64,000 nt of DNA from Leptospiria bacterium (lineage in GTDB: Bacteria; Spirochaetota; Leptospiria; Turneriellales; CBDBES01), in the NCBI GenBank assembly GCA_965262015.1, contig OZ253494.1:1402720-1466719 (forward strand), written 5' to 3'. The translations under genes and the position numbers were made by a program. A model generated the notes under the pieces. That model was not told the DNA's origin, did not search any database, and saw nothing but the letters and a program-made list of their open reading frames with translations. This document shows positions 6,515 through 41,051 of the stretch, piece by piece. Position 1 is the first letter of the stretch; each line of letters begins with the position of its first letter.

Positions 6515-6608
6515 AGTCTATTTATTTTGAATTTTTCGAGTAAAGTCTTTTTTAAACTATATCTCGTAAAGAAAGAACTATTTAGTGGACGATATCTATT
6601 TGTTGATT

Positions 6609-12150: not shown

Positions 12151-12645
12151 GAAGAGCCAGTACCATCTCTGTACAAAATAAACTTGGTTAGCGGTTTTCC
12201 ATTGTAAAGATGGCTTACACATGTTATTAATTATGGTACAAGATCTAAATATATTTTTTTATTTGAACACCTGATCATCTGCCTTTCTGTTAAAATATTT
12301 TTTTAGTTGTTTGATAGAGTTTTTAACCTGCCCTTTTTGTCATGATAAACCCATAGCCAATACATATACAGGAGCATATAGCATTTTCTGTAAATTTATA
12401 AATGATATATTTTCAGTTCCCCTATCACAAATTATCACCCGTATATTTGCCACTCAAGAAAATAAATATTTTCATGTTATATATAAACCTAAAATAAATG
12501 TATATATGAGCTATTTTTCAATAGCTCATATTCTCTAATAAATACTTCTGCATATTTTCATTAGTCATTCTCCTTATTTTTCATCTTTTTAAGAAAAACA
12601 GCTCATGAATACCTTAAACTGTCCAGGGTTGAACTGGCCTTTCAA
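12151..12645 (-). mobile_element. IS30-family remnant (copy 2), internally deleted; forms the left boundary of the array
   Basis: The right-end IR-like GAAGAGCCAGTACCATCTCTGTACAAAATAAACTTGGTTAGC aligns over 42 nt with copy 4 at 52454. It carries a degraded transposase C-terminal region, and the left-end region ends at ...CCAGGGTTGAACTGGCCTTTCAA. Confidence 0.7.
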
Positions 12646-12692
12646 CCAGTTACATAATTTCTTGACTATACACACCTACATCAGATTTATAT

Positions 12693-12727
12693 TTTTCTAA
12701 ATAGGCAGAGCATGCCTATTTAGAAAA
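12693..12727 (+). promoter_or_regulatory. Conserved palindrome/hairpin (15-bp stem, 5-nt loop) ending 8 nt before the start codon of paralog 1
   Basis: The sequence is TTTTCTAAATAGGCA-GAGCA-TGCCTATTTAGAAAA. Copies lie upstream of all four paralogs, and no Shine-Dalgarno is visible between the palindrome and the ATG. Confidence 0.55.
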
Positions 12728-12734
12728 TACAAAT

Positions 12735-14615
12735 ATGAAATACATAAAAAATATGAACACTACGTTAATGAATAGCGTCAATTGGCATCCAAGATGGTCA
12801 TTAGTTATGTGTGTTGGTCTTATGGTATTTATGATCTTTGGCGTATCTCTGTCTACAGGATGTTCTATCACCTTTCCAGGTAGAATAGTCAATCCCCCTC
12901 CCCTCCCTGATATAGATTGCCCTACAGGTATGGCTCGCCTTGCAAATACTTCTAAAAAAACTACAGACACCTGCATGCTTGATGCCGGTGGTGATGGTAT
13001 TCCTAATTCCACGGATACTGATGGCGATGGTATTCCTGATTCCATGGATGTAGATGCTGATGGTGATGGTTTGATAGAGATAAAAACTGCTGAGATGCTA
13101 GATAACATGCGCTATGATTTGGCGGGAACAAGCTATAAGACCTCGGCGACACAAACAACAGGTAATACAGATGGTTGCCCTGCTGTTGGCAGTGGTGGTT
13201 GTAACGGCTACGAACTAACGGCCGACATTGATCTTTTGAGCTTGCTTGATGCCAACGGTAATGGGATGATCGATACGACGATGGAGGGCATTGATAAAAA
13301 TGCCGACGGCGATACTACAGATATCGGTGAGCAAATAACAGTTATTGATACTACTGCAGATACAAGCTGGATGCCTATTGGTGATAATTCGACAAATGAT
13401 GACATAACTCGCTTCACAGGCACTTTTGAGGGCAACAACCATACTATCGCCAACCTTTGGGTGAATATCTCTTCTTCTGCCTCTAACGCCTATGCGGGTT
13501 TGTTTGGCGTGACGGGTGGCACGGTGACCATTCGCAACCTGGAGATTATCGACGGCTCAATTTATTCTTATTCCACGGGTTCTAATTTTAATCCTGTCTC
13601 TGGCGGTCTGGTGGGACTTTCTGCTGCTTCTTTGATGATTATGAATAGTACTTTTAGTGGGTCTGGTGGAGTCTTTTCTTCTGCCGCTGCTAATTCTACT
13701 AATACTCTTTCTCGCTCAGGTGGCATGGTAGGGCAGGCTGATAATACTTTGACGATCATCAAGTGTATTTTTAGTGCATCTGGTGGAGTCTCTTCTTCTT
13801 CTACTAATTCTTCTTCCCGTTCTGATTCTGGTGGTCTAGTGGGTACTTCTTCGTCTTTAACAATAACCAATAGTACTTTTAGTGGGTTAGGTGGGGTTTC
13901 TTCTTCCTCTACCGCTACTACTACTCTTCGTGATTCTCTTGCAGGCGGTATTGTTGGTTTTCCTACTGGTATCTCAACTATCACCAATTCGTATTTTAGT
14001 GGATCTGGTGGAGTCTCTTCTTCTTCTACGACTACCGATTCTTATGTTGGCGGTCTGGTGGGGACTAGTAATGCTTCTTTCATGATCAAAAATAGTTATT
14101 TTTCTGGGTTTGGTGATATCTTTTCTTTTGCTTCTGGTGGGTCGTCTATATCAGGTGGTCTGGTTGCTCACAGTCACCATGGCACTCCTTTAACGATCAT
14201 CAATAGTTATTTTAGTGGATCTGGTAAAGTCTCTTCTTCTACCTCAGGTTCTGTATCTTATTCAGGTGGTCTGGTGGGTCGTTCTACTGCTTCTTTGACG
14301 ATCACAAACAGTTATTGGAATACAGAGACATCTCAAAGTGTGGGAGGCTCTCCCCAAAACCCAAAACGGGCACAGGGTAATGCTGCGATGAACCCATCAG
14401 GCACAACTGGCCTCACCTTAGTGCAACTGCAAGCTATCACTGGCATACACCCATCTGGTCTGCCACATAGTGCCACCGACGACACCAAAGCGTGGGACCT
14501 TGGCACCGATATGCAATTACCTGCGGTTAAGCTGTGTATCCCCACGATCACAAGCGGTGTCGCTAACTGGGCGATATGTGCATCATACGGCACTCTGCTT
14601 GCCGGGCAAAGATAG
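12735..14615 (+). CDS. Surface lipoprotein paralog 1: TSP3-like Ca-binding module plus 7 GLUG-type repeats
   Basis: This 626-aa protein has a signal peptide ending LSTGC (Cys43). It carries one DCPTGMARLANTSKKTTDTC loop and the DTDGDGIPDSMDVDADGDG motif, then a core FTGTFEGNNHTIANLW...GLFG. Seven GG(L/M/I)VG...I.NS.FSG.G repeats follow, and the C-terminus is NSYWNTET...WDLGT..QLPAVKLC...LLAGQR. Confidence 0.85.
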   Translation: MKYIKNMNTTLMNSVNWHPRWSLVMCVGLMVFMIFGVSLSTGCSITFPGRIVNPPPLPDIDCPTGMARLANTSKKTTDTCMLDAGGDGIPNSTDTDGDGIPDSMDVDADGDGLIEIKTAEMLDNMRYDLAGTSYKTSATQTTGNTDGCPAVGSGGCNGYELTADIDLLSLLDANGNGMIDTTMEGIDKNADGDTTDIGEQITVIDTTADTSWMPIGDNSTNDDITRFTGTFEGNNHTIANLWVNISSSASNAYAGLFGVTGGTVTIRNLEIIDGSIYSYSTGSNFNPVSGGLVGLSAASLMIMNSTFSGSGGVFSSAAANSTNTLSRSGGMVGQADNTLTIIKCIFSASGGVSSSSTNSSSRSDSGGLVGTSSSLTITNSTFSGLGGVSSSSTATTTLRDSLAGGIVGFPTGISTITNSYFSGSGGVSSSSTTTDSYVGGLVGTSNASFMIKNSYFSGFGDIFSFASGGSSISGGLVAHSHHGTPLTIINSYFSGSGKVSSSTSGSVSYSGGLVGRSTASLTITNSYWNTETSQSVGGSPQNPKRAQGNAAMNPSGTTGLTLVQLQAITGIHPSGLPHSATDDTKAWDLGTDMQLPAVKLCIPTITSGVANWAICASYGTLLAGQR

Positions 14616-14700
14616 ACGACTGCCATCCAGTGATGCTCTACTCGCTGGGCGAAGATAAGCATTACCGACAATAGTACTGAGGATAAAGTAACCAAAGGGC

Positions 14701-15066
14701 TTGCTAGGATTAAAAGAAACTGGTGTTTCAGCACCCACGACAAGTTATGGATTCGGCACTGCAACTGGAGAAATGGATGGTGGATATGGTACCTCCATTC
14801 CATCAAGCATAGGTAGTGCAGGAACTGCAACGGAGCGTGCTGCTAAGTTGACGTCAAGCGACGTTGATGTATCATCGTGGAATGATGTTAGTCAAAACAC
14901 CAAAGGTGCTTGGAACTTCGGTACCCTTATGCAAATCCCTGCCCTTAAATACGCCGACTATGACGGTACTGGTACTATATTCTATTGCAACAGTGTTATG
15001 TCTACACCTACAACTGGAATTCCTATTCCTAACTGTGGTGAATTCATCCCTGGACAGGCTAGGTAG
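14701..15066 (+). CDS. Hypothetical 121-aa ORF homologous to the C-terminal domain of the lipoprotein paralogs (possible domain relic)
   Basis: It has a TTG start. Its C-terminus TKGAWNFGTLMQIPALKYADYDGTG..FYC...IPNCGEFIPGQAR parallels TKAWDLGTASQLPAVKLC...CASYGALLAGQR. An identical copy lies at 23702-24067. Confidence 0.35.
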   Translation: MLGLKETGVSAPTTSYGFGTATGEMDGGYGTSIPSSIGSAGTATERAAKLTSSDVDVSSWNDVSQNTKGAWNFGTLMQIPALKYADYDGTGTIFYCNSVMSTPTTGIPIPNCGEFIPGQAR

Positions 15067-15130
15067 AAGGTGGTGAAAGAGATCATATCACCTTCTGCTT
15101 AAGAATATATCTGCAGGGCTTTAAGGAATT

Positions 15131-15175
15131 GAGCGTTAGAGCTGAACAGAGCCAAAACAATAGACCTGGCTTAGC
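15131..15175 (-). repeat. Extra solo copy of the IS right-end IR-like sequence
   Basis: GAGCGTTAGAGCTGAACAGAGCCAAAACAATAGACCTGGCTTAGC resembles the IR region CTGGACAGAATAGACTTGGTTAGC of copy 4. It recurs at about 21261 and about 24140. Confidence 0.5.
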
Positions 15176-15215
15176 TATTATTTGCAAAATTTAGATTAGA
15201 TTTTTATTTTCTTTT

Positions 15216-15245
15216 AACGGTGTTGGTTCTTGTACCAACACCGTT
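15216..15245. repeat. Perfect 12-bp-stem hairpin (AACGGTGTTGGT-TCTTGT-ACCAACACCGTT) inside the inter-IR segment
   Basis: I read it directly, and copies lie at 21346-21375 and 24217-24246. It is absent from the unit 2/3 junction. Confidence 0.8.
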
Positions 15246-15271
15246 ATTCATGTTGATTGATCCTGTAAAAT

Positions 15272-15505
15272 CGAGAAATTAGCATTTGCTCTGGACAGAA
15301 ATAGGCCTGGCTTAGCCTAGTATCTTTATCTCATAAAAGACAGCAGATTTTGATAGATTTATTTTATGAGCTATTTTTCAATAGCTCATATTCTCTAATA
15401 AATACTTCTGCATATTTTTATTAGTTATTCTCCTTATTTTTCATCTTTTTAAGAAAAACAGCTCATGAATACCTTAAACCGTCCAGGGTTGAACTAGCCT
15501 TTCAA
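15272..15505 (-). mobile_element. MITE-like IS30 derivative at the unit 1/2 boundary
   Basis: The right-end IR-like ...CTCTGGACAGAAATAGGCCTGGCTTAGCC is joined directly to the IS 5' region (GAGCTATTTTTCAATAGCTC...AAGAAAAACAGCTCATGAATACCTTAAACCGTCCAGGGTTGAACTAGCCTTTCAA). There is no transposase ORF. Confidence 0.6.
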
Positions 15506-15550
15506 CCAGTTACACAATTCTTGACCATACACATCTACTTAGGTGCATGG

Positions 15551-15583
15551 CTTCTAAATAGGCAGAGTATGCCTATTTAGAAG
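15551..15583 (+). promoter_or_regulatory. Conserved leader palindrome (14-bp stem) upstream of paralog 2
   Basis: The sequence is CTTCTAAATAGGCA-GAGTA-TGCCTATTTAGAAG. The outer stem pair C:G replaces the T:A of units 1 and 3, so both arms changed. Confidence 0.55.
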
Positions 15584-15591
15584 ATACAAAT

Positions 15592-18111
15592 ATGAAATAC
15601 ATAAAAAATATGAACACTACGTTAATGAATAGCGTCAATTGGCATGCAAGATGGTCATTAGTTATATGTGTTGGTCTTATGGTATTTATGATCTTTGGCG
15701 TATCTTTGTCTACAGGATGTTCTATCACCTTTCCAGGTAGAATAGTCAATCCCCCTCCCCTCCCCGATGTAGATTGCCCTACAGGTACGGCTCGCCTTGC
15801 AAATACTTCTAAAAAAACTACAGACACCTGCATGCTTGATGCTGATTCCGATGCTCCTGATGTAGATTGCCCTACGGGTATGGCTCGCCTTGCAAATGCT
15901 TCTAAAAAAACTACAGACACCTGCATGCCCGATACTGATGGTGACGGTACTCCTGATGTAACTTGTCTTATGGGCACCATTCGTTTGGCAGGTACTTCTA
16001 TAAATACTATGGACACTTGTGTCCCCGATGATGACGGCGATGGTATTCCTGATTCCATGGATGTAGATGCTGATGGTGATGGTTTGATAGAGATAAAAAC
16101 TGCTGAGATGCTAGATAACATGCGCTATGATTTGGCGGGAACAAGCTATAAGACTAAGGCTCAGGACTTAGCGGGTGAAGATGGTAATACAGATGGTTGC
16201 CCTGCTGTTGTTAGTAGCAGTGGAGATTGTAACGGCTACGAACTAACGGCCGACATTGATCTTTTGAGCTTGCTTGATGCAAATGGCAATGGGATGATTG
16301 ATACGACGATGGAGGGCATTGATAAAAATACTGACGGCGATACAACAGATGCAGGTGAGCAAATAACAGTTATTGATATAGGTACGGGCAAAGACAAAAG
16401 TTGGGTGCCCATTGGTACTACTGGCACGGAGAACAGCTTCACAGGCACTTTTGAAGGCAATAACCACACCATCGCTAACCTTTGGGTGAATATCTCTTCT
16501 TCTAGCTCTACTGTTTATGCGGGTTTGTTTGGTCTAGCGGGTGGCCCGAGCATTCGTAATGTGGGGGTTATTTCAGGTTCAATTCACGCTTTTTCTTCTG
16601 ATTCTTCTTCTGAGTCTTATTCAGGCGGTTTGGTGGGTTATTCTGGGAGTACTTTGAGTATTACGAATAGTTATTTTAGCGGTGGGGGTGGAGTTTCTTC
16701 TAATTCTTATTCTAATTCAGGCGGTTTGGTGGGTTATTCTGGGAGTACTTTGACAATAACGAATAGTTATTTTAGCGGTGCGGGTGGAGTTTCTTCTGCT
16801 TCTTCTTCAGGCGGTTTGGTGGGTTATTCTGGGAGTACTTTGAGTATTACGAATAGTTATTTTAGTGGTGTGGGTGGAGTTTCTGATTCTTCTGCTTTTC
16901 GTTCTTCTTCAGGCGGTTTGGTGGGTTATTCTGTGGGGAGTACTTTGAGTATTACGAATAGTTATTTTAGCGGTGGGGGTGGAGTTTCTTCTTCTACTTC
17001 TTCTAGTTCCTCTGAGTCTTATTCAGGCGGTTTGGTGGGTTATTCTAGAAGTACTTTGATAATAACGAATAGTTATTTTAGCGGTGGGGGTGGAGTTTCT
17101 ACTTCTTCTGCTTTTCGTTCTTCTTCAGGCGGTTTGGTGGGTTATTCTGAGAGTACTTTGAGTATTATGAATAGTTATTTTAGCGGTGTGGGTGGAGTTT
17201 CTTCTGATTCTTCTTCTTCTAATTCAGGCGGTTTGGTGGGTTATTCTGGGAGTACTTTGAGTATTACGAATAGTTATTTTAGCGGTGCGGGTGGAGTTTC
17301 TTCTGCTTCTTCTTCAGGTGGTTTGGTGGGTTATTCTGGGAGTACTTTGAGTATTACGAATAGTTATTTTAGTGGTGTGGGTGGAGTTTCTGATTCTTCT
17401 GCTTTTCGTTCTTCTTCAGGCGGTTTGGTGGGTTATTCTGGGAGTACTTTGAGTATTACGAATAGTTATTTTAGCGGTGGGGATGGAGTTTCTTCTAATT
17501 CTACTACTTCTTCTTCTAATTCAGGCGGTTTGGTGGGTTATTCTCAGAGTGGGAGTACTTTGATGATTATGAATAGTTATTTTAGCGGTGGGGGTGGAGT
17601 TTCTTCTAATTCTACTACTTCTTCTTCTAATTCAGGCGGTTTGGTGGGTTATTCTGTGGGGAGTACTTTGAGTATTACGAATAGTTATTTTAGCGGTGGG
17701 GGTGGAGTTTCTTCTAATTCTACTACTTCTTCTTCTAATTCAGGCGGTTTGGTGGGTTATTCTGTGAGTACTGTGAGTACTTTGACGATTACGAATAGTT
17801 ATTGGGACAACAGTGTGCCTCAAAGTGTAGATGGCTCTCCCCAAAGTCTGCGGGTCGTGGGTAGCTCTTCGACGAATCCAATGGGTGCAACTGGTCTCAC
17901 CTTAACGCAACTACAAGCTATCACTGTTAGCACTACAAGTGCCCCATCCCCATCTGGTTTGCCACATAGTGCCACTGATAATACCAAATCTTGGGACCTA
18001 GGCACCGCAAGCCAGCTACCTGCGGTTAAGTTATGCGTTAGCCCCACGGTTAGCAGCACCAACGTTGTAACATGTGCGTCATACGGTGCTCTGCTTGCCG
18101 GGCAACGATAG
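15592..18111 (+). CDS. Surface lipoprotein paralog 2: three Cys-loop/TSP3-like modules plus 12 GLUG-type repeats
   Basis: This 839-aa protein has the same signal peptide and LSTGC as paralog 1. It carries three (V/I)DCPTG.ARLAN.SKKTTDTC-type modules and 12 copies of GGLVGYS.STL.I.NSYFSG.GGVS with Ser-rich spacers. Confidence 0.85.
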   Translation: MKYIKNMNTTLMNSVNWHARWSLVICVGLMVFMIFGVSLSTGCSITFPGRIVNPPPLPDVDCPTGTARLANTSKKTTDTCMLDADSDAPDVDCPTGMARLANASKKTTDTCMPDTDGDGTPDVTCLMGTIRLAGTSINTMDTCVPDDDGDGIPDSMDVDADGDGLIEIKTAEMLDNMRYDLAGTSYKTKAQDLAGEDGNTDGCPAVVSSSGDCNGYELTADIDLLSLLDANGNGMIDTTMEGIDKNTDGDTTDAGEQITVIDIGTGKDKSWVPIGTTGTENSFTGTFEGNNHTIANLWVNISSSSSTVYAGLFGLAGGPSIRNVGVISGSIHAFSSDSSSESYSGGLVGYSGSTLSITNSYFSGGGGVSSNSYSNSGGLVGYSGSTLTITNSYFSGAGGVSSASSSGGLVGYSGSTLSITNSYFSGVGGVSDSSAFRSSSGGLVGYSVGSTLSITNSYFSGGGGVSSSTSSSSSESYSGGLVGYSRSTLIITNSYFSGGGGVSTSSAFRSSSGGLVGYSESTLSIMNSYFSGVGGVSSDSSSSNSGGLVGYSGSTLSITNSYFSGAGGVSSASSSGGLVGYSGSTLSITNSYFSGVGGVSDSSAFRSSSGGLVGYSGSTLSITNSYFSGGDGVSSNSTTSSSNSGGLVGYSQSGSTLMIMNSYFSGGGGVSSNSTTSSSNSGGLVGYSVGSTLSITNSYFSGGGGVSSNSTTSSSNSGGLVGYSVSTVSTLTITNSYWDNSVPQSVDGSPQSLRVVGSSSTNPMGATGLTLTQLQAITVSTTSAPSPSGLPHSATDNTKSWDLGTASQLPAVKLCVSPTVSSTNVVTCASYGALLAGQR
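16621..17805 (+). repeat. Intragenic near-identical 90-114-nt tandem repeats (12 units) with a 507-nt higher-order duplication
   Basis: The unit TCAGGCGGTTTGGTGGGTTATTCTGGGAGTACTTTGAGTATTACGAATAGTTATTTTAGCGGTG.GGGTGGAGTTTCT recurs. Repeats 2-3 (from 16717) recur almost base-for-base as repeats 7-8 (from 17224). Confidence 0.9.
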
Positions 18112-18125
18112 ACGACTGCCATCCA

Positions 18126-18229
18126 GTGATGCTCTACTCACTGGGCAAAGATAAGCATTGCCGACCGATAGTACTGAGTGATGCTCTATTCACTGGGCGA
18201 AGATAAGCACTGCCGACCGATAGTACTGA
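18126..18229 (+). repeat. 2 x 52-nt tandem copy of a stop-containing tail motif derived from the gene 3' terminus
   Basis: GTGATGCTCTAYTCACTGGGCRAAGATAAGCAYTGCCGACCGATAGTACTGA occurs twice here. Single copies lie in units 1, 3 and 4. It encodes SDAL(L/F)TG(Q/R)R*, compare the gene end YGALLAGQR*. Confidence 0.8.
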
Positions 18230-18407
18230 GGATAAAGTAACCAAAGGTGCTTGGAATTTTGGCACCCTTATGCAAATCCCTGCCCTTAAATACGCCGACT
18301 ATGACGGTACTGGTACTATATTCTATTGCAACAGTGTTATGTCTACACCTACAACTGGAATTCCTATTCCTAACTGTGGTGAATTCATCCCTGGACAGGG
18401 TCGGTAG
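18207..18407 (+). pseudogene. Truncated relic of the downstream C-terminal-domain module (unit 2)
   Basis: It reads ...STEDKVTKGAWNFGTLMQIPALKYADYDGTGTIFYCNSVMSTPTTGIPIPNCGEFIPGQGR*. It lacks the 208 nt present in units 1 and 4 between the direct repeats ACCAAAGG, and it has no usable start codon. Confidence 0.6.
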
Positions 18408-18470
18408 AAGGTGGTGAAAGAGATCATCACCTCCTGCTTAAGAATATATCTGCAGGGCTTTAAGAAATTA

Positions 18471-18702
18471 AGCATTAGAGCTGAACAGAGCCAAAACAAT
18501 AGACCTGGCTTAGCCTAGTATCTTTATCTCATACAGGACAGTAGATTTTGATAGATTGATTTTTTGAGCTATTTTTCAATAGCTCATATTCTCTAATAAA
18601 TACTTCTGTATATTTTGATAAGCTGTTCTTCCTGAATCTTATTATTTAAGAAAAACAGCTCATGAATACCTTAAAACATCCAGGGTTGAACTTGCCTTTC
18701 AA
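18471..18702 (-). mobile_element. MITE-like IS30 derivative at the unit 2/3 boundary (single IR copy, hairpin segment deleted)
   Basis: AGCATTAGAGCTGAACAGAGCCAAAACAATAGACCTGGCTTAGCCTAG is followed directly by the IS 5' region, ending ...CCAGGGTTGAACTTGCCTTTCAA. Confidence 0.6.
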
Positions 18703-18749
18703 CCAGTTACATAATTTCTTGACTATACACACCTACATCAGATTTATAT

Positions 18750-18784
18750 TTTTCTAAATAGGCAGAGCATGCCTATTTAGAAAA
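18750..18784 (+). promoter_or_regulatory. Conserved leader palindrome (15-bp stem) upstream of paralog 3
   Basis: The sequence TTTTCTAAATAGGCA-GAGCA-TGCCTATTTAGAAAA is identical to the unit 1 copy. Confidence 0.55.
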
Positions 18785-18791
18785 TACAAAT

Positions 18792-20936
18792 ATGAAATAC
18801 ATAAAAAATAAGAATACTACGTTAATGAATAGCGTCAATTGGCATCCAAGATGGTCATTAGTTATGTGTGTTGGTCTTATGGTATTTATGATCTTTGGCG
18901 TATCTTTGTCTACAGGATGTTCTATCACCTTTCCAGGTAGAATAGTCAATCCCCCTCCCCTCCCTGATATAGATTGCCCTACGGGTATGGCTCGCCTTGC
19001 AAATACTTCTAAAAAAATTACAGACACCTGCACGCTTGATGCCGATTCCATTAATACGGATGATGACGGCGATGGTATTCCTGATTCCATGGATGTAGAT
19101 GCTGATGGTGATGGTTTGATAGAGATAAAAAATGCCGTGATGCTAGATAACATGCGCCATGATCTATCGGGTACCAGCTATAAGACTAAGGCTCAGGACT
19201 TAGCGGGTGAAGATGGTAATACAGATGGTTGCCCTGCTGTTGTTAGTGGCAGTGGTGGTTGTAACGGCTACGAACTAACGGCCGATATTGATCTTTTGAG
19301 TTTGCTTGATGCCAACGGTAATGGGATGATCGATACGACGATGGAGGGCATTGATAAAAATGCTGACGGCGATACGACAGATGCAGGTGAGCAAATAACA
19401 GTTATTGATATAGGTACGGGAAAAGATAAAAGTTGGGTGCCCATTGGTACCGTTGGCACGGGGAAAAGCTTCACAGGCACTTTTGAAGGCAATAACCACA
19501 CCATCGCTAACCTTTGGATGAATAGCTCTAATGTCTATACGGGCTTATTTGGTGTAACGGGTGGCACGGTGGCCATTCGCAATGTGGGGGTTATTTCAGG
19601 TTTAATTCACGTTTCTTCTTCTAATTCTGGTTCAGGCGGTTTGGTGGGTTATTCTGGGAGTGGGAGTACTTTGACAATAACGAATAGTTATTTTAGTGGT
19701 GCGGGTGGAGTTTCTTCTCCTTATTCTGCTTCTTATTCAGGCGGTTTGGTGGGTTATTCTGGGAGTGGGAGTACTTTGACAATAACGAATAGTTATTTTA
19801 GTGGTGCGGGTGGAGTTTTTTCTGCTTCTGGTTCAGGCGGTTTGGTGGGTTATTCTGGGAGTACTTTGACAATAACGAATAGTTATTTTAGCGGTGGGGG
19901 TGGAGTTTCTTCTTCTAATTCTTCAGGCGGTTTGGTGGGTGTTTCTGAGAGTACTTTGACAATAACAAATAGTTATTTTAGCGGTGGGGGTGGAGTTTCT
20001 TCTGTTTCTTCTTCTTCTAATTCTTCAGGCGGTTTGGTGGGTTATTCTGGGAGTATGAGTACTTTGATAATAACGAATAGTTATTTTAGCGGTGGGGGTG
20101 GAGTTTCTTCCTCCTCTTCTTCTTATTCTTATTCAGGCGGTTTGGTGGGTTTTTCTGAGAGTACTTTGAGTATTACGAATAGTTATTTTAGCGGTGGGGG
20201 TGGAGTTTCTTCCTCCTCTTCTTCTTATTCTTATTCAGGCGGTTTGGTGGGTTTTTCTGGGAGTACTTTGAGTATTACGAATAGTTATTTTAGCGGTGGG
20301 GGTGGAGTTTCTTCCTCCTCTTCTTCTTCTGTTGCTACTGCTTCTTCTTCTTCAGGCGGTTTGGTGGGTTTTTCTGGGGGTACTTTGAGTATTGCGAATA
20401 GTTATTTTAGTGGTGAGGGTGGAGTTTCTACTACTACTTCTTCTTCTTCTTCTTATTCAGGCGGTTTGGTGGGTTATTCTGGGAGTACTTTGAGTATTAC
20501 GAATAGTTATTTTAGCGGTGGGGGTGGAGTTTCTTCCTCCTCTTCTTCTTCTTCTCATTCAGGCGGTTTGGTGGGTTCTTCTCAGAGTGGGAGTACTTTG
20601 ATGATTATGAATAGTTATTGGAACACAGACGCCCCTCAAAAAATAACTAATGGAATGACTGATCAAAGCCCAAAGCTGGCAGTGGGTAACTCTTCGACGA
20701 ATCGAATGGGTACAACTGGTCTCACCTTAACGCAACTACAAGCTATCACTGTTAGTACTACAAGTGCCCCATCCCCATCTGGTTTGCCACATAGTGCCAC
20801 TGATAATACCAAAGCTTGGGACCTAGGCACCGCAAGCCAGCTACCTGCGGTTAAGTTATGCGTTAGCCCCACGGTTAGCAGCACCAACGTTGTAACATGT
20901 GCATCATACGGTGCTCTGCTTGCCGGGCAACGATAG
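18792..20936 (+). CDS. Surface lipoprotein paralog 3: one Cys-loop/TSP3-like module plus 10 GLUG-type repeats
   Basis: This 714-aa protein has the same signal peptide and LSTGC. It carries 10 copies of GGLVG(Y/F/V/S)S..STL.I.NSYFSG.GGVS. Its C-terminal 90 aa are nearly identical to paralog 2. Confidence 0.85.
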   Translation: MKYIKNKNTTLMNSVNWHPRWSLVMCVGLMVFMIFGVSLSTGCSITFPGRIVNPPPLPDIDCPTGMARLANTSKKITDTCTLDADSINTDDDGDGIPDSMDVDADGDGLIEIKNAVMLDNMRHDLSGTSYKTKAQDLAGEDGNTDGCPAVVSGSGGCNGYELTADIDLLSLLDANGNGMIDTTMEGIDKNADGDTTDAGEQITVIDIGTGKDKSWVPIGTVGTGKSFTGTFEGNNHTIANLWMNSSNVYTGLFGVTGGTVAIRNVGVISGLIHVSSSNSGSGGLVGYSGSGSTLTITNSYFSGAGGVSSPYSASYSGGLVGYSGSGSTLTITNSYFSGAGGVFSASGSGGLVGYSGSTLTITNSYFSGGGGVSSSNSSGGLVGVSESTLTITNSYFSGGGGVSSVSSSSNSSGGLVGYSGSMSTLIITNSYFSGGGGVSSSSSSYSYSGGLVGFSESTLSITNSYFSGGGGVSSSSSSYSYSGGLVGFSGSTLSITNSYFSGGGGVSSSSSSSVATASSSSGGLVGFSGGTLSIANSYFSGEGGVSTTTSSSSSYSGGLVGYSGSTLSITNSYFSGGGGVSSSSSSSSHSGGLVGSSQSGSTLMIMNSYWNTDAPQKITNGMTDQSPKLAVGNSSTNRMGTTGLTLTQLQAITVSTTSAPSPSGLPHSATDNTKAWDLGTASQLPAVKLCVSPTVSSTNVVTCASYGALLAGQR
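19632..20622 (+). repeat. Intragenic near-identical tandem repeats (10 units) with (TCT)n-rich spacers
   Basis: The repeat consensus is the same as in paralog 2. Spacers contain TCTTCTTCTTCT... runs of variable length. Confidence 0.9.
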
Positions 20937-21000
20937 ACGACTGCCATCCAGTGATGCTCTACTCACTGGGCAAAGATAAGCATTGCCGACCGATAGTACT

Positions 21001-21197
21001 GAGGATAAAGTAACCAAAGGGCTTGGAGCTTTGTCACTGGTAAAATCCCTGCCCTTAAATACGCCGACTATGCAGACTATGACGGTACTGGTACTACATT
21101 CTATTGCAACAGTGTTATGTCTACACCTGCAACGGGAATGGGAATGCCCATGCCCATTCCTAACTGTGGTGAATTTATCCCTGGACAGGGTCGGTAG
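21001..21197 (+). pseudogene. Frameshifted relic of the downstream C-terminal-domain module (unit 3)
   Basis: The homologous frame reads ...IPALKYADYADYDGTGTTFYCNSVMSTPATGMGMPMPIPNCGEFIPGQGR*. A 4-nt length difference upstream breaks the frame, so the track ORF 20983-21207 is in a different frame. Confidence 0.55.
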
Positions 21198-21401
21198 AAG
21201 GTGGTGAAAGAGATCATCACCTTCTGCTTAAGAATATATCTGCAGGGCTTTAAGGAATTGAGCGTTAGAGCTGAACAGAGCCAAGAAAGGTAGACCTGGC
21301 TTAGCTATTATTTGCAAAATTTAGATTAGATTTTTATTTTCTTTTAACGGTGTTGGTTCTTGCACCAACACCGTTGTTCATGTTGATTGATCTTGTAAAA
21401 T

Positions 21402-21634
21402 CAAGAAATTAGCATTGGCTCTGGACAGAAATAGACCTGGCCTAACCTCGTATCTTTATCTCATAAAAGACAGCAGATTTTGGTATATGTATATATGAGC
21501 TATTTTTCAATAGCTCATATTCTCTAATAAATACTTCTGCATATTTTTATTAGTTATTCTCCTTATTTTTCATCTTTTTAAGAAAAACAGCTCATGAATA
21601 CCTTAAACCGTCCAGGGTTGAACTAGCCTTTCAA
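21402..21634 (-). mobile_element. MITE-like IS30 derivative at the unit 3/4 boundary
   Basis: It has the same architecture as 15272-15505, and an extra IR copy lies at about 21261-21305. Confidence 0.6.
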
Positions 21635-21679
21635 CCAGTTACACAATTCTTGACCATACACATCTACTTAGGTGCATGG

Positions 21680-21712
21680 CTTCTAAATAGGCAGAGTATG
21701 CCTATTTAGAAG
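21680..21712 (+). promoter_or_regulatory. Conserved leader palindrome (14-bp stem) upstream of paralog 4
   Basis: The sequence CTTCTAAATAGGCA-GAGTA-TGCCTATTTAGAAG is identical to the unit 2 copy. Confidence 0.55.
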
Positions 21713-21720
21713 ATACAAAT

Positions 21721-23616
21721 ATGAAATACATAAAAAATATGAACACTACGTTAATGAATAGCGTCAATTGGCATCCAAGATGGTCATTAGTTATGTGTGT
21801 TGGTCTTATGGTATTTATGATCTTTGGCGTATCTTTGTCTACAGGATGTTCTATCACCTTTCCAGGTAGAATAGTCAATCCCCCTCCCCTCCCCGATGTA
21901 GATTGCCCTACAGGTACGGCTCGCCTTGCAAATACTTCTAAAAAAACTACAGACACCTGCATGCTTGATGCCGATTCCGATGCTCCTGATGTAGATTGCC
22001 CTACGGGTATGGCTCGCCTTGCAAATGCTTCTAAAAAAACTACAGACACCTGCATGCCCGATACTGATGGTGACGGTACTCCTGATGTAACTTGTCTTAT
22101 GGGCACCATTCGTTTGGCAGGTACTTCTATAAATACTATGGACACTTGTGTCCCCGATGATGACGGCGATGGTATTCCTGATTCCATGGATGTAGATGCT
22201 GATGGTGATGGTTTGATAGAGATAAAAACTGCTGAGATGCTAGATAACATGCGCTATGATTTGGCGGGAACAAGCTATAAGACCTCGGCGACACAAACAA
22301 CAGGTAATACAGATGGTTGCCCTGCTGTTGGCAGTGGTGGTTGTAACGGCTACGAACTAACGGCCGATATTGATCTTTTGAGTTTGCTTGATGCCAACGG
22401 TAATGGGATGATCGATACGACGATGGAGGGCATTGATAAAAATGCTGACGGCGATACGACAGATGCAGGTGAGCAAATAACAGTTATTGATACTACTGCA
22501 GATACAAGCTGGATGCCTATTGGTGATAATTCGACAAATGATGACATAACTCGCTTCACAGGCACTTTTGAGGGCAACAACCACACCATCGCCAACCTCT
22601 GGGTGAATATTTCTTCTTCGGATAACGCCCATGCGGGTTTATTTGGCGTAACGGGTGGAACAACGGTGACCATTCGCAATGTGAGTGTCATTTCAGGCTC
22701 AATTCATTCTTCTGCTACTTCTGCTTCTGGTCAATCTAATGCAGGCGGTTTGGTGGGACTTTCTACTGCTTCTTTAATAATAAGTGATTGTACTTTTTCT
22801 GGATCGCTTGGGGTCTCTACTTCTAATAATGCTGGCGGTCTAGTGGGTGCGTCTGGTGCTCCTTTAATAATAAGCAATTGTACTTTTTTGGGGTCGGGTG
22901 ATATCTCTTCTTCTAATCAAAGTGGTTCTTCTGCTGGTGGTCTGGTGGGGTGGATTAGTTCTTCTTTGACAATCACTAATTCCATTTTTTCTGGGTCGGG
23001 TGATATCTCTGCTTCTGCTTCTAATGGTTCTACTCATTCTGGCGGTCTGGTGGGGTGGATGAGTTCTTCTTTGACAATCACTAATTGCATTTTTTCTGGG
23101 TCGGGTGATATCTCTGCTTCTTCTCCTTCTGCTTCTAATAGTTCTATTGTTGGCGGTTTGACTGGTCACGCTTACTCTACCTCTCCCGTTTCTTGGACAA
23201 TTACTAATTGCAGTTTCTTTGGCTCTGGTCAAATCTCTTCTATGGGTACTAATAGTTTTACTGTTGGCGGTTTGATTGGAACTACTAACAGTTCTTTGAC
23301 GATAAGAAACAGTTATTGGAACAAAGATGCCATCCAAAGAGTGGGTGGCTCTAACCAAAGCCCCAAGAGGGCGAAGGGTGACGCTTCTTCAGATCCATCT
23401 GGCACGATTGGCCTCACCTTAGTAGAACTGCAAGCTATTACTGGCATACACCCATCTGGTTTGCCACATAGTGCCACCGACAGCACCAAAGCTTGGGACC
23501 TAGGCACTGCAAGCCAGCTACCCGCTATTAAGCTGTGTATTCCCACCATCACAAGCGGTGTCACCGATTGGACGATGTGTGCGTCATACGGTGCTCTGCT
23601 TGCTGGGCAACGATAG
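21721..23616 (+). CDS. Surface lipoprotein paralog 4 (chimeric): three Cys-loop/TSP3-like modules plus 6 divergent GLUG-type repeats
   Basis: This 631-aa protein has a 5' part of about 470-560 nt almost identical to paralog 2. Its central region is of the paralog 1 type with a paralog 3 patch. It carries six GGL(V/T/I)G...I(S/T)N(C/S).F.GSG.IS repeats. Confidence 0.85.
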   Translation: MKYIKNMNTTLMNSVNWHPRWSLVMCVGLMVFMIFGVSLSTGCSITFPGRIVNPPPLPDVDCPTGTARLANTSKKTTDTCMLDADSDAPDVDCPTGMARLANASKKTTDTCMPDTDGDGTPDVTCLMGTIRLAGTSINTMDTCVPDDDGDGIPDSMDVDADGDGLIEIKTAEMLDNMRYDLAGTSYKTSATQTTGNTDGCPAVGSGGCNGYELTADIDLLSLLDANGNGMIDTTMEGIDKNADGDTTDAGEQITVIDTTADTSWMPIGDNSTNDDITRFTGTFEGNNHTIANLWVNISSSDNAHAGLFGVTGGTTVTIRNVSVISGSIHSSATSASGQSNAGGLVGLSTASLIISDCTFSGSLGVSTSNNAGGLVGASGAPLIISNCTFLGSGDISSSNQSGSSAGGLVGWISSSLTITNSIFSGSGDISASASNGSTHSGGLVGWMSSSLTITNCIFSGSGDISASSPSASNSSIVGGLTGHAYSTSPVSWTITNCSFFGSGQISSMGTNSFTVGGLIGTTNSSLTIRNSYWNKDAIQRVGGSNQSPKRAKGDASSDPSGTIGLTLVELQAITGIHPSGLPHSATDSTKAWDLGTASQLPAIKLCIPTITSGVTDWTMCASYGALLAGQR

Positions 23617-23701
23617 ACGACTGCCATCCAGTGATGCTCTACTCGCTGGGCGAAGATAAGCATTACCGACAATAGTACTGAGGATAAAGTAACCAAAGGG
23701 C

Positions 23702-24067
23702 TTGCTAGGATTAAAAGAAACTGGTGTTTCAGCACCCACGACAAGTTATGGATTCGGCACTGCAACTGGAGAAATGGATGGTGGATATGGTACCTCCATT
23801 CCATCAAGCATAGGTAGTGCAGGAACTGCAACGGAGCGTGCTGCTAAGTTGACGTCAAGCGACGTTGATGTATCATCGTGGAATGATGTTAGTCAAAACA
23901 CCAAAGGTGCTTGGAACTTCGGTACCCTTATGCAAATCCCTGCCCTTAAATACGCCGACTATGACGGTACTGGTACTATATTCTATTGCAACAGTGTTAT
24001 GTCTACACCTACAACTGGAATTCCTATTCCTAACTGTGGTGAATTCATCCCTGGACAGGCTAGGTAG
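23702..24067 (+). CDS. Hypothetical 121-aa C-terminal-domain-like ORF (identical copy of 14701-15066)
   Basis: The protein sequence in the track is identical to that of 14701-15066. Confidence 0.35.
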   Translation: MLGLKETGVSAPTTSYGFGTATGEMDGGYGTSIPSSIGSAGTATERAAKLTSSDVDVSSWNDVSQNTKGAWNFGTLMQIPALKYADYDGTGTIFYCNSVMSTPTTGIPIPNCGEFIPGQAR

Positions 24068-24272
24068 AAGGTGGTGAAAGAGATCATATCACCTTCTGCT
24101 TAAGAATATATCTGCAGGGCTTTAAGGAATTGAGCGTTAGAGCTGAACAGAGCCAAAACAATAGACCTGGCTTAGCTATTATTTGCAAAATTTAGATTAG
24201 ATTTTTATTTTCTTTTAACGGTGTTGGTTCTTGTACCAACACCGTTGTTCATGTTGATTGATCCTGTAAAAT

Positions 24273-24506
24273 CGAGAAATTAGCATTTGCTCTGGACAGA
24301 AATAGGCCTGGCTTAGCCTAGTATCTTTATCTCATACAGGACAGTAGATTTTGATAGATTGATTTTTTGAGCTATTTTTCTATAGCTTATATGTTCTAAT
24401 AAATCCTTCTGTATATTTTTATTGGCTGTTCTACTTATTTTTCATCTTTTTAAGAAAAACAGCTCATGAATACCTTAAACCGTCCAGGGTTGAACTGGCC
24501 TTTCCA
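24273..24506 (-). mobile_element. MITE-like IS30 derivative closing the array
   Basis: It has the same architecture as the other boundary elements but is more diverged (GAGCTATTTTTCTATAGCTTAT). It ends ...CCAGGGTTGAACTGGCCTTTCCA. No leader palindrome follows it. Confidence 0.55.
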
Positions 24507-40443: not shown

Positions 40444-41051
40444 GGAGAGTCTGGAGTTGGACAGTTTAAGGTGTTCATAAGCCGTTTTTCTTAAAAGTAT
40501 TAAGACTTAGGAGGAATAGTTTATGAAAATATACAACGAAAAGCAGATATTTATTTTAGGTCTATTCATAGCATAACAAATAGTATGAAAAAAGCATTTG
40601 GAGTATGGAAAATAGACACCATGTACATACAAAATGAGTATATTGCTGTGGCTGTAGAACAGTATTTCGAAAAATTATAGTAATACTGATACTTAATCTA
40701 AAAGCAGAAACATGATTAGAAGCATGGAAACAGTTGTTTTCTCGAGTGGAAAATATACGGGCTATCGTTTATGGCAGGAGGAATTGAAAATATATCATTT
40801 AGAAATTTATAGAGAATGCTAAATATAGTAGTCTATGCATGCAACCCAGGTTCACCATGGCAAAAAGAACAGATTGAGGATGCCATCAAATAAGATAGGA
40901 AGATATTTTGACAGAAAGACAGATTATCAGACATTAAAACAAAAAAATATATTTAGATCTTGTACTATGATCAATAACATGTACAAGCTTATTGTTGTAA
41001 GGGGAAACTGCTGACCAAGTCTATTCTGTCTAGCTCCGGTGCTGACTCTCC
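40444..41051 (+). mobile_element. IS30-family remnant (copy 3), both termini preserved, body collapsed to 608 bp
   Basis: It carries terminal inverted repeats GGAGAGTC (40444) and GACTCTCC (41044-41051). The interior holds transposase fragments interrupted by stops (..ACNPGSPWQKEQIEDAIK*..). Confidence 0.75.

What the first reader, a model, noticed from the sequence alone, without database searches (positions are those of the whole stretch)
21497..24369. Unit 4 is a fine-scale patchwork of units 2, 1 and 3 (gene-conversion signature)
I read this directly. The leader, signal peptide and all three Cys-loop modules of unit 4 (21497 to about 22190) match unit 2 (15368 to about 16060). I found only three substitutions: CATGCA/CATCCA, ATATGT/ATGTGT and GATGCT/GATGCC. 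After a stretch shared by units 1, 2 and 4, the sequence at 22284 follows unit 1 (AGCTATAAGAC-CTCGGCGACACAAACAACAGG, compare 13142), not unit 2 (..GAC-TAAGGCTCAGG, 16155). Within that unit-1-type region, 22368-22470 carries the diagnostic bases of unit 3. That patch reads GATATTGATCTTTTGAGTTTG...AATGCTGACGGCGATACGACAGATGCAGG and equals 19281-19390. Unit 1 instead has GACATT...GAGCTTG...AATGCCGAC...ACTACAGATATCGG. From about 22489 it returns to unit-1 type (GATACTACTGCAGATACAAGCTGGATGCC). The GLUG block and C-terminal domain of paralog 4 are clearly diverged from paralog 1. From the stop codon onward (23617 to about 24330), however, the sequence appears identical to 14616 to about 15330, including an identical 366-nt ORF. 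The last ~40 nt before the next IS fragment are of the unit 2/3 junction type (CATACAGGACAGTAGATTTTGATAGATTGATTTTTTGAGC). Alternating donor tracts of 100-700 nt are what segmental gene conversion produces.
Basis: seen in the sequence. Interest (0 to 1): 0.75.

Follow-up and report, generated by a model that had tools for sequence, protein, structure and literature searches.

The report
Mosaic tandem surface-lipoprotein gene array
Four neighbouring copies of a surface-lipoprotein gene in an uncultured spirochaete have swapped stretches of DNA with each other, and apparently with distantly related bacteria, so the fourth copy is a real patchwork; this is a clear but familiar way for surface-protein gene families to evolve.

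Summary
Unit 4 (21497-24369) matches unit 2 over 790 nt with exactly the three substitutions listed. It then matches unit 1, with a 141-nt stretch identical to unit 3. After the stop codon it matches unit 1 again (720 nt, 1 mismatch). It ends in 74 nt identical to the unit 2/3 junction.

Diagnostic sites cluster strongly: 20 runs against 48.9±2.8 in permutations, and MaxChi and 3SEQ-like tests give P<0.0005. Synonymous divergence ranges from 0.00 to about 0.6 along the gene. Non-coding flanks are 99.9% identical. Selection therefore cannot explain the pattern.

Recombination among paralogs is shown. Gene conversion is the most economical mechanism but is inferred.

Three refinements:
- The unit 3 patch more likely went from unit 4 to unit 3, or its direction is unresolved.
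- The "diverged" GLUG core of unit 4 (22584 to about 23440) is 96.5% identical to a gene on a differently organised metagenomic contig. A unit 1 stretch is 93.6% identical to a contig whose MetH is only 63% identical. Cores therefore also move between lineages.
- The C-terminal 170 nt is itself a patchwork of 20-50-nt pieces.

The genes encode GLUG β-helix lipoproteins of a deep Leptospirales-like spirochaete. This is a new member of a known kind, of moderate-low interest.

The parts
12495..15364 (+). Unit 1: leader, gene 12735-14615 (626 aa, one Cys-loop module), and a 3' flank with the 121-aa ORF 14701-15066 and a hairpin at 15215-15246. It is the near-identical partner of the U4 N-domain and 3' flank.
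15365..18565 (+). Unit 2: gene 15592-18111 (839 aa, three Cys-loop modules, about 15 GLUG coils). Its 5' 790 nt (15365-16154) is 99.6% identical to U4. Its 3' flank carries deletions.
18566..21496 (+). Unit 3: gene 18792-20936 (714 aa, one Cys-loop module). The leader is 98% identical to U1 and the body is U2-like. Stretch 19258-19398 is identical to U4.
21484..21496 (+). Short U1-type patch (TGTATATAT) at the extreme 5' edge of unit 4, inside a junction that is otherwise U2/U3-type.
   Evidence: four 14|23 sites at 21445-21493
21497..22283 (+). U2-type tract of unit 4: leader, signal peptide with lipobox, and three Cys-loop modules. Three differences from U2; the last 93 nt are also shared with U1. 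At 21775 and 21795, U4 carries the U1/U3 state, so these may be a U1/U3-type micro-patch rather than point substitutions.
   Evidence: The fifth paralog P0011 shares the U2 state (Ile) at the second site.
21543..21632 (+). Dispersed repeat inside the leader, with core AAGAAAAACAGCTCATGAATACCTTAAAC. Copies lie at 943-1033 (+) and 40458-40535 (-), each next to an IS30-transposase remnant. A second leader piece, 21451-21551, recurs at 53809-53911.
21680..21712 (+). Perfect 14-bp palindrome 9 nt upstream of the start codon, present in all four leaders. Predicted RNA hairpin of -20.7 kcal/mol, z-score -4.9. Function unknown; it could be an operator or a 5'-UTR hairpin.
21721..23616 (+). Unit 4 coding sequence (631 aa). 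It contains a signal peptide with lipobox (Cys43), three Cys-loop modules (aa 59-145), an Asp-rich Ca-binding-like stretch, an N-domain (aa 165-295), a GLUG β-helix (aa 296-530) and a C-terminal domain.
22284..22583 (+). U1-type N-domain tract of unit 4. It is identical to U1 outside 22368-22467.
22340..22480 (+). Stretch identical to U3 19258-19398 (141/141). Diagnostic sites lie at 22368-22467. The direction of transfer is unresolved and leans U4 to U3.
22584..23440 (+). GLUG β-helix core of unit 4. It is only 52-73% identical to the other units but 96.5% identical (31 differences in 884 columns, dS 0.041) to gene 1 of metagenomic contig L001. The 5' breakpoint lies between 22578 and 22584, inside the family-wide conserved FEGNNHTIANLW block.
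23441..23611 (+). C-terminal end of unit 4. It is a very fine patchwork of 20-50-nt stretches of U1 type, U2/U3 type (for example GCAAGCCAGCTACC, about 23505-23530) and L001 type.
23612..24336 (+). U1-type 3' flank with 1 mismatch (24247). It includes the 121-aa TTG-start ORF 23702-24067 and a 13-bp hairpin at 24216-24247.
24337..24380 (+). Stretch of U2/U3-junction type. The whole of 24307-24380 is identical to 18504-18577.
24369..24505 (+). Fifth, partial copy of the leader that closes the array before fabD (24585). The array is therefore four copies of leader plus gene plus flank, followed by one more leader. This layout is expected from unequal recombination between flanking direct repeats.

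Best explanation
Positions 12495-24505 hold a tandem array of four paralogous genes. They encode surface-anchored GLUG β-helix lipoproteins of an uncultured, deep-branching Leptospirales-like spirochaete.

The units keep exchanging sequence by homologous recombination. The exchanges are seeded in short blocks that stay conserved across the family: the DGDGLIEI block, the FEGNNHTIANLW block and the stop-codon region. Most exchanges are best read as non-reciprocal ectopic gene conversion between units of the same array, with tracts from about 20 nt to about 800 nt. These homogenise the leader, the export signal, the N-domain and the 3' flank in changing pairings.

The β-helix cores persist as old, distinct types. 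They are occasionally replaced by DNA imported from other lineages.

Unit 4 is therefore, in order:
- U2-type 5' end (21497-22283)
- U1-type N-domain (22284-22583), which shares a recent 141-nt exchange with U3
- a core shared with a foreign contig (22584 to about 23440)
- a finely mixed C-terminal end
- U1-type 3' flank (23612-24336)
- U2/U3-type junction

Shown: the mosaic, its statistical significance, its independence from protein-level selection, and the cross-genome near-identity of the cores. Inferred: non-reciprocity, RecA dependence, the intragenomic origin of each tract, donor and recipient polarity, and any functional benefit such as surface variation.
For: - Tract identities and exact differences.
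- Clustering of informative sites: 20 runs against 48.9±2.8.
- Longest-run tests, MaxChi and 3SEQ-like tests.
- dS between U4 and U2 jumps from 0.00-0.014 to 0.34 to 0.58. dS between U4 and U1 jumps from about 0.1 to about 0.6. Non-coding flanks are 99.6-99.9% identical.
- Pairings are incongruent (leaders U1=U3 and U2=U4; bodies and flanks U1~U4 and U2~U3). No single duplication reproduces this.
- Breakpoints fall in blocks conserved in all family members.
- The same kind of mosaic is seen in two other arrays: L005 and L001.
- The U4 core against L001 gene 1 has dS 0.041, while the adjoining N-domain has 0.55 and the C-terminal domain 0.42.
- U1 13558-13837 is 93.6% identical to L005. MetH on the same L005 contig is only 63% (nt) and 60% (aa) identical to the window's MetH, with pS 0.77.
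- Protein identity: Pfam GLUG hits, an AF2 β-helix with pLDDT >90 over aa 150-570, and a Foldseek top hit to 3n6z and the IgA1-protease β-helix domains.
- Taxonomy: the closest named PyrG hits (56-62% identity; best overall 65%) are Spirochaetia, Leptospiraceae, Leptospirales, Turneriella and Leptonema MAGs.
Against: - Only one genome of this organism is available. No sister strain exists in any searched collection. No before-and-after comparison is possible, so non-reciprocity and polarity are untested.
- The U3 patch rests on only 2 sites uniquely shared by U3 and U4, plus changes private to U1 and U2.
- Alignment inside the GLUG coils is uncertain, so isolated discordant sites there may be noise.
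- The window's source genome clusters with long-read metagenome assemblies. Read-level support for the array could not be examined.
- The host of L001 is inferred only from array sequences. The cross-lineage argument is anchored by a single housekeeping gene, MetH on L005.
Confidence: 0.75

Rival explanations
1. All tracts, not only the cores, came from outside. DNA from other strains or lineages with differently arranged arrays was taken up and recombined in. Under this view the mosaic records population-level recombination rather than exchange between units of one chromosome.
For: Cross-genome near-identical stretches exist: the U4 core with L001 at 96.5% and U1 with L005 at 93.6%. The family is far more similar between genomes than MetH or PyrG are.
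Against: For the 5' tract, N-domain, 3' flank and junction, a 99.6-100% identical copy sits a few kb away in the same array. No external sequence matches these parts at all. L001 and L005 have unrelated leaders, N-terminal modules and intergenic genes. A local donor is much more economical.
Confidence: 0.12
2. Serial tandem duplications and unequal crossovers with different breakpoints built the hybrid units. No gene conversion was involved.
For: The array has the four-units-plus-extra-leader layout typical of unequal recombination between flanking repeats. Coil numbers differ between units, from about 7 to about 15.
Against: A crossover hybrid has one switch point and lies between its parents. 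U4 has at least six switches (U1, U2, U1, U3-identical, U1, foreign core, mixed, U1, U2/3). It lies at the far end of the array, away from U1 and U2. Internal patches of 20-141 nt need double exchanges.
Confidence: 0.07
3. This is a programmed variation system for antigenic or phase variation, in which cassettes are copied into an expressed gene at high frequency.
For: The proteins are surface lipoproteins with a variable exposed β-helix. Fine-scale patches are present. Every leader carries a conserved palindrome. Two leader types differ in the -10-like hexamer. Related genomes hold very large paralog families, with at least 28 among the best 120 hits on one 2.13-Mb contig.
Against: All four units have a complete leader, start codon and signal peptide, so there is no single expression site with silent cassettes. 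No recombinase, invertase or reverse transcriptase lies next to the array. Tracts differ by 0.1-0.4%, so they are not very recent. The organism is known only from metagenomes and no host is known.
Confidence: 0.05
4. The mosaic is an assembly artefact. The repeat array was stitched together wrongly from reads of different units or strains.
For: Related sequences come from a metagenome assembly with contigs at 4-29x coverage. Switch points lie in stretches shared between units.
Against: Shared stretches at the switch points are only 30-93 nt, far shorter than long reads. The near-identical tracts carry a few private differences (3 in 790, 1 in 720). These mark real separate copies rather than reused reads. 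Two independent contigs show the same kind of mosaic.
Confidence: 0.03

Closest known systems
Treponema pallidum tpr paralog family (tprC/D/I/J and others; tprK donor-site conversion)
   Same: A spirochaete surface-protein multigene family. Paralogs share near-identical segments next to divergent ones. [quoted passage not shown] 2004).
   Different: Tpr proteins are β-barrel outer-membrane proteins, not β-helix lipoproteins, and their genes are dispersed rather than in a strict tandem array. tprK has one expression site and silent donor cassettes, which this array lacks. There is no sequence relationship.
Mosaicism of leptospiral outer-membrane and lipoprotein genes through horizontal DNA transfer (Haake et al. 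2004, PMC387810, cited in PMC6016234; not read here)
   Same: The same broad lineage (Leptospirales). Surface and lipoprotein genes are made of segments with different histories, imported by recombination between lineages.
   Different: Those are single-copy genes recombining between species. Here the main exchange is between tandem paralogs, with cross-lineage import on top.
Concerted evolution by ectopic gene conversion in bacterial multigene families (Neisseria opa, tuf, rRNA operons); established knowledge, not tested here
   Same: Non-reciprocal homologous recombination between paralogs gives tracts of identity. Adjacent segments have incongruent phylogenies. Paralogs can be more alike than orthologs.
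   Different: Here homogenisation is segmental and changes partner from tract to tract. The central β-helix escapes it and persists as trans-lineage types.
GLUG-motif β-helix domains (Pfam PF07581; PDB 3n6z Bacteroides ovatus 'putative IgA1 protease'; the β-helix domain of streptococcal IgA1 proteases 6xjb and 7uvk)
   Same: GLUG motif hits. The predicted right-handed β-helix matches 3n6z at Foldseek E 4.9e-7 and TM 0.58 on the target.
   Different: No protease domain was detected (Pfam and NCBIfam report nothing but GLUG). The N-terminal Cys-loop modules, the lipoprotein anchor and the C-terminal domain have no described counterpart. Sequence identity to the structures is only 13-18%.
Variable-length 'periscope' surface proteins (PMC8201768)
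   Same: Surface proteins whose number of near-identical internal repeats varies between copies. Here there are about 7 to 15 GLUG coils, and some coils in U2 are 96% identical to each other.
   Different: Periscope repeats are globular domains forming a stalk. Here the repeats are coils of one β-helix. Length variation between strains was not observed here, only between paralogs.

Membership tests
Interlocus (ectopic) gene conversion / concerted evolution among paralogs | Tracts of near-identity between paralogs embedded in much more divergent sequence | tested here: met
   790 nt with 3 differences (U2), 141/141 (U3) and 720 nt with 1 difference (U1), against 52-73% identity in the core
Interlocus (ectopic) gene conversion / concerted evolution among paralogs | Adjacent segments support conflicting groupings, and informative sites cluster more than chance allows | tested here: met
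   20 runs against 48.9±2.8. MaxChi2 71.9 with P<0.0005. Longest-run tests P<0.0002. U3 patch P about 1e-5
Interlocus (ectopic) gene conversion / concerted evolution among paralogs | The pattern holds at silent and non-coding sites, so it is not due to protein-level selection | tested here: met
   dS ranges from 0.00 to about 0.6 along one gene pair. Non-coding leader and 3' flank are 99.6-99.9% identical
Interlocus (ectopic) gene conversion / concerted evolution among paralogs | Paralogs within a genome are more alike than the corresponding segments between genomes | tested here: met
   N-domain: U1 against U4 dS 0.09, compared with U4 against L001 genes dS 0.52-0.55. The reverse holds for the core
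Interlocus (ectopic) gene conversion / concerted evolution among paralogs | Non-reciprocal transfer: the donor stays unchanged and there is no reciprocal product | not testable with these tools
   This needs ancestral or sister-strain arrays. None was found
Cassette-based antigenic variation (vlsE, tprK, pilE/pilS type) | One expression site plus promoterless or truncated silent cassettes | tested here: not met
   All four units carry a full leader, start codon, signal peptide and complete ORF. The 121-aa ORF has only a weak 16-residue resemblance to the C-terminal domain
Cassette-based antigenic variation (vlsE, tprK, pilE/pilS type) | High-frequency variation within a population or during infection | not testable with these tools
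   No reads and no population data
GLUG-motif β-helix proteins (PF07581) | Match to the GLUG profile above Pfam's gathering score | tested here: met
   U1 39 bits and U2 28 bits against a cut-off of 20.5. U3 at 19.8 and U4 at 18.6 fall just below
GLUG-motif β-helix proteins (PF07581) | Right-handed β-helix fold like solved GLUG domains | tested here: met
   AF2 model with pLDDT >90 over aa 150-570. Foldseek top hits are 3n6z (E 4.9e-7), 6xjb and 7uvk
IgA1 protease (M26 / ZmpA type) | Zinc-metalloprotease catalytic domain | tested here: not met
   No protease family in Pfam or NCBIfam. Only the β-helix part aligns to the solved structures
Bacterial lipoprotein | Signal peptide followed by a lipobox cysteine | tested here: inconclusive
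   The sequence shows a charged n-region, a hydrophobic helix (aa 5-36 in the model) and LSTG-C43. No lipoprotein predictor was available. The lipobox is of the looser spirochaetal type (own knowledge)
   The array holds no transposase. Leader repeat 21543-21632 recurs at 943-1033 and 40458-40535, each beside an IS30 transposase remnant (NF033563, E 1.5e-12 for 663-914; 670-918 is 82% identical to 40730-40980). No complete IS was available to define the ends

The most novel reading that the evidence does not exclude
The β-helix cores of this lipoprotein family may behave as a shared pool of cassettes. They would circulate between distantly related, co-occurring Leptospirales-like spirochaetes, whose housekeeping proteins are only about 60% identical. 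Once imported, they would be 'domesticated' by local gene conversion, which overwrites both ends with the resident leader, export signal, N-domain and 3' flank. That would make the array a community-level surface-diversification system rather than ordinary concerted evolution.
Probability: 0.3. Interest if true: 0.55.

Novelty: new member of a known kind. Interest (0 to 1): 0.35.

Why it matters
This is a clean, statistically solid example of segmental concerted evolution in a bacterial tandem gene family. Export and regulatory modules are homogenised, while the exposed β-helix is kept diverse.

It also flags an uncharacterised, highly expanded family of GLUG β-helix lipoproteins in uncultured Leptospirales-like spirochaetes. 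One related 2.13-Mb contig carries at least 28 paralogs. Parts of these genes appear to cross lineage boundaries.

On the practical side, gene trees or orthology calls for this family will mislead unless they are made segment by segment.

The mechanism itself is well known, so the finding extends a known pattern to a new family and lineage. It does not open a new question.

Tried and rejected
- The genome-contig scan with the four-paralog alignment was wasted. No sister genome was obtained.
- Two exact-pattern scans of JGI metagenome contigs found nothing. One used a signal-peptide 30-mer and the other a 33-mer from the U4 core.
- Look-ups of the window's own proteins (P0001, P0003 and the SDR at 25508-26443) found no record. 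The source sample of the window could therefore not be established.
- Rfam and tRNA scans of the window found nothing.
- NCBIfam gave no family for the paralogs or the 121-aa ORF. A PDB sequence search gave only a chance-level hit.
- The 121-aa ORF was considered as a conserved partner gene or a silent C-terminal cassette. It has no homolog in L001 or L005, whose small ORFs are unrelated coiled-coil membrane proteins. It shares only a 16-residue motif with the C-terminal domain. This reading was not supported.
- The high GC of the array (42.6% against 33%) was considered as evidence of foreign origin. It was rejected as such, because the family has the same excess in every genome examined. Amino-acid composition or GC-biased conversion remain possible explanations.
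- Literature searches for the GLUG motif with lipoprotein, and for the sample accession, gave nothing useful.

Full report
**Anatomy of the array**

Positions 12495-24505 hold four head-to-tail units followed by one extra partial leader, just upstream of fabD (24585). Each unit has a leader of about 240 nt, one large gene and a 3' flank of 0.7-1 kb. The genes are U1 12735-14615, U2 15592-18111, U3 18792-20936 and U4 21721-23616.

The proteins share this layout:
- a signal peptide ending in LSTG-C43
- one Cys-loop module (U1, U3) or three (U2, U4)
- an Asp-rich DxDGDG stretch
- a conserved N-domain
- a variable number of GLUG coils, about 7 to 15
- a C-terminal domain with two cysteines

Pfam reports only the GLUG motif. 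An AlphaFold model of U4 is confident (pLDDT >90) from residue 150 to 570 and forms a right-handed β-helix. Its best structural matches are the Bacteroides ovatus GLUG protein 3n6z and the β-helix part of streptococcal IgA1 proteases. No protease domain is present.

The flanking genes are ordinary chromosomal genes: fliK, flgD and flgE upstream, and fabD and fabF downstream. The closest PyrG sequences are at most 65% identical. Those that carry names belong to Spirochaetia, Leptospiraceae, Leptospirales, Turneriella and Leptonema MAGs. The organism is therefore an uncultured, deep-branching Leptospirales-like spirochaete.

**Check of the observation**

- 22191-22283 is shared by U1, U2 and U4.
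- From 22284, U4 follows U1, including two indels that separate U1/U4 from U2/U3.
- 22340-22480 is identical to U3 (141/141), with 7 differences from U1 and 9 from U2.
- 22493-22578 is again identical to U1.
- The GLUG block and C-terminal domain are 52-87% identical to every other unit.
- 23617-24336 equals 14616-15335 with one mismatch (24247), and the 366-nt ORF is identical.
- 24307-24380 is identical to the U2/U3 junction, while the U1/U2 junction differs at five positions.

**Statistics**

- Among 2,264 gap-free columns there are 198 two-against-two informative sites. They form 20 runs, against 48.9±2.8 (minimum 36) in 20,000 permutations.
- A GENECONV-style test on 624 polymorphic sites gives pairwise P<0.0002 for the U4/U2 run (33 sites), three U4/U1 runs (32, 27 and 25 sites) and the U4/U3 run (14 sites).
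- With U4 as child of U2 and U1, MaxChi2 is 71.9 at 22164|22284 (P<0.0005). A 3SEQ-like walk gives P<5e-5.
- In the U3 patch, 7 of 9 U3-type sites are contiguous among 59 sites (P about 1e-5).
- These tests ignore the two large indel blocks, which point the same way.

**Selection does not explain the pattern**

Nei-Gojobori synonymous divergence between U4 and U2 is 0.00-0.014 for codons 1-157, 0.34 for codons 158-295, and about 0.58 beyond that. Between U4 and U1 it is 0.06-0.13 up to codon 295 and about 0.6 afterwards. The non-coding leader and 3' flank are 99.6-99.9% identical to their partners.

**A simple duplication history does not explain it either**

Leaders and signal peptides pair as U1=U3 (98%) and U2=U4 (99.6%). 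N-domains, bodies and 3' flanks pair as U1~U4 and U2~U3. A hybrid made by one unequal crossover would have a single switch point and would lie between its parents. U4 has at least six switches and lies at the far end of the array. Internal patches of 20-141 nt need double exchanges. Non-reciprocal exchange between paralogs is therefore the most economical reading. Non-reciprocity itself could not be tested with one genome.

**Refinement 1: polarity of the U3 patch**

I used three genes on the related contig L001 as outgroups. Only 22368 and 22383 are derived states shared solely by U3 and U4. Four of the seven differences from U1 (22458 and 22465-22467) are private to U1; the state at 22446 is shared by U1 with two of the three L001 outgroup genes. 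U3 is U2-like on both sides of the patch, with dozens of sites and three indels. Inside the patch it matches U4 exactly and shares the derived T at 22338 and 22401 with U1 and U4. The exchange between U3 and U4 is real, but U4 to U3 is at least as likely as U3 to U4.

In the same way, the two 'substitutions' at 21775 and 21795 put U4 with U1 and U3. The fifth paralog P0011, elsewhere in the genome, shares the U2 state at the second site. These may be a U1/U3-type micro-patch rather than point mutations.

**Refinement 2: the 'diverged' core has a near-twin elsewhere**

A search of 5.8 billion proteins found no sister strain, but it did find P0002 on a 6.9-kb metagenomic contig, L001.
- At the DNA level, U4 22584 to about 23440 is 96.5% identical to L001 gene 1 (31 differences in 884 columns). 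The first 390 nt have only 4 differences. The regions on either side drop to 72-90%.
- Per segment, dS is 0.041 for the core, 0.55 for the N-domain and 0.42 for the C-terminal domain.
- The 5' switch lies between 22578 and 22584, inside the FEGNNHTIANLW block that is conserved across the whole family.
- In L001 the N-domain of gene 1 is homogenised with a neighbouring gene up to almost the same point. L001 1-841 is 93.6% identical to 6014-6859.
- L001 has different N-terminal modules (fibronectin-like repeats instead of Cys-loops), different leaders and different small intergenic genes.
- L001's leaders are 93-94% identical to those of L005, a 347-kb contig.
- MetH on L005 is only 63% (nt) and 60% (aa) identical to the window's MetH, with saturated silent sites.
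- On that same L005 contig, a 280-nt stretch of the GLUG block is 93.6% identical to U1 13558-13837. The window's other units are only 65-67% identical to that stretch.

So β-helix cores are shared between lineages that are far apart genome-wide. The ends of each gene, in contrast, resemble the resident paralogs. The simplest account is import of cores, or of whole genes, followed by local conversion of the ends. The alternative, vertical descent of the core with both flanks overwritten, still requires conversion.

**Refinement 3: a finer mosaic at the C-terminus**

The last 170 nt of the U4 gene alternate between U1-type, U2/U3-type and L001-type stretches of 20-50 nt. A 12-nt U1-type patch sits at the extreme 5' edge (21484-21496).

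**The 'IS fragment'**

- The leader core AAGAAAAACAGCTCATGAATACCTTAAAC occurs five times in the array and also at 981 (+) and 40464 (-).
- About 90 nt around it (21543-21632) match 943-1033 and 40458-40535. Another leader piece (21451-21551) matches 53809-53911.
- Both outside copies lie next to remnants of an IS30-family transposase. ORF 663-914 hits NF033563 at E 1.5e-12, and 670-918 is 82% identical to 40730-40980.
- The leader therefore contains dispersed, probably IS-derived repeats, but the array holds no transposase sequence.
- The layout of four units plus one extra leader fits amplification by unequal recombination between such flanking repeats. This is an inference.

**Comparison with known systems**

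Segmental gene conversion among surface-protein paralogs is well documented. In Treponema pallidum tpr genes, small 'site-specific' conversions are invoked with uncertain intra- or inter-genomic donors (PMC6016234). Mosaic leptospiral outer-membrane and lipoprotein genes are attributed to horizontal DNA transfer (Haake et al. 2004, cited in PMC6016234). The array is not a cassette-type antigenic variation locus, because all four units are complete and carry their own leaders. Related arrays (L005, L001) show the same mosaic habit, so this is a property of the family.

**Verdict**

It is a new member of a known kind and of moderate-low interest. The possible cross-lineage circulation of β-helix cores is the most interesting open point.

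Noticed in passing
window 21680-21712 (also about 12694-12726, 15551-15583, 18751-18783): A perfect 13-14-bp palindrome (CTTCTAAATAGGCA-N5-TGCCTATTTAGAAG) ends 9 nt before the start codon of every unit. Predicted RNA hairpin of -20.7 kcal/mol, z-score -4.9. It could be an operator or a translation-controlling 5'-UTR hairpin.
   Followed up: partly
window 13558-13837 and L005 11322-11601: A 280-nt stretch of the U1 GLUG block is 93.6% identical to a gene on a contig whose MetH is only 63% identical to the window's. The window's own other units are 65-67% identical to this stretch.
   Followed up: yes
window 12440-24500 against the rest of the window: The array has 42.6% GC against 33.1% for the rest. 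GC3 is 0.32-0.36 (0.49 in the U4 C-terminal domain) against 0.17-0.27 in housekeeping genes. Array intergenic DNA is 39% GC against 28% upstream of U1. The same excess is seen in related genomes, so it belongs to the family. GC-biased conversion is one possible cause.
   Followed up: partly
window 663-914 (-) and 40730-41014 (+): Two remnants of an IS30-family transposase (C-terminal part only). Each lies beside a copy of the repeat found in the array leaders.
   Followed up: partly
window 23702-24067 and 14701-15066: An identical 121-aa TTG-start ORF follows U1 and U4. U2 and U3 carry deleted versions. It has no family match and no homolog in the related arrays. It shares a 16-residue AWxxGTxxQxPAxK motif with the C-terminal domain of the large genes, so it may be a decayed gene end rather than a gene.
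   Followed up: partly
window 23617-23700, 18112-18253, 20937-21025: Right after each stop codon lie one or two degenerate copies of the last 40 nt or so of the gene (…GCTCTACTCGCTGGGCGAAGATAAGCATTACCGAC…). U2 has two copies. These look like scars of earlier misaligned recombination.
   Followed up: no
window 16695-16933 against 17202-17440, and many others in 16590-17741 and 19607-20563: GLUG coils inside U2 and U3 are themselves near-identical tandem repeats, up to 96% identical over 239 nt. This indicates recent expansion or homogenisation of coils within a gene.
   Followed up: no
L001 2037-2468 and 5205-5636; L005 6847-7233 and 9574-9936: In the related arrays, each large gene is followed by a small coiled-coil protein made of DDRIDKLDAKI repeats with a C-terminal membrane helix. 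The repeat number varies between copies. The window's array has no such gene.
   Followed up: no
protein hits (2,133,161-nt contig; locus L004): One related 2.13-Mb contig carries at least 28 members of this lipoprotein family among the best 120 hits. That is an unusually large share of a small genome. L004 also carries a DUF1577 gene, a family described from Leptospira.
   Followed up: no
window 12629-12658 and 18686-18715 against 15489-15517 and 21618-21646: The two leader types differ in the -10-like hexamer of the only σ70-like match: TTGAAC-N18-CATAAT in U1/U3 and CACAAT-like in U2/U4. They also differ in the 20 nt that follow. The units may therefore be expressed differently.
   Followed up: no
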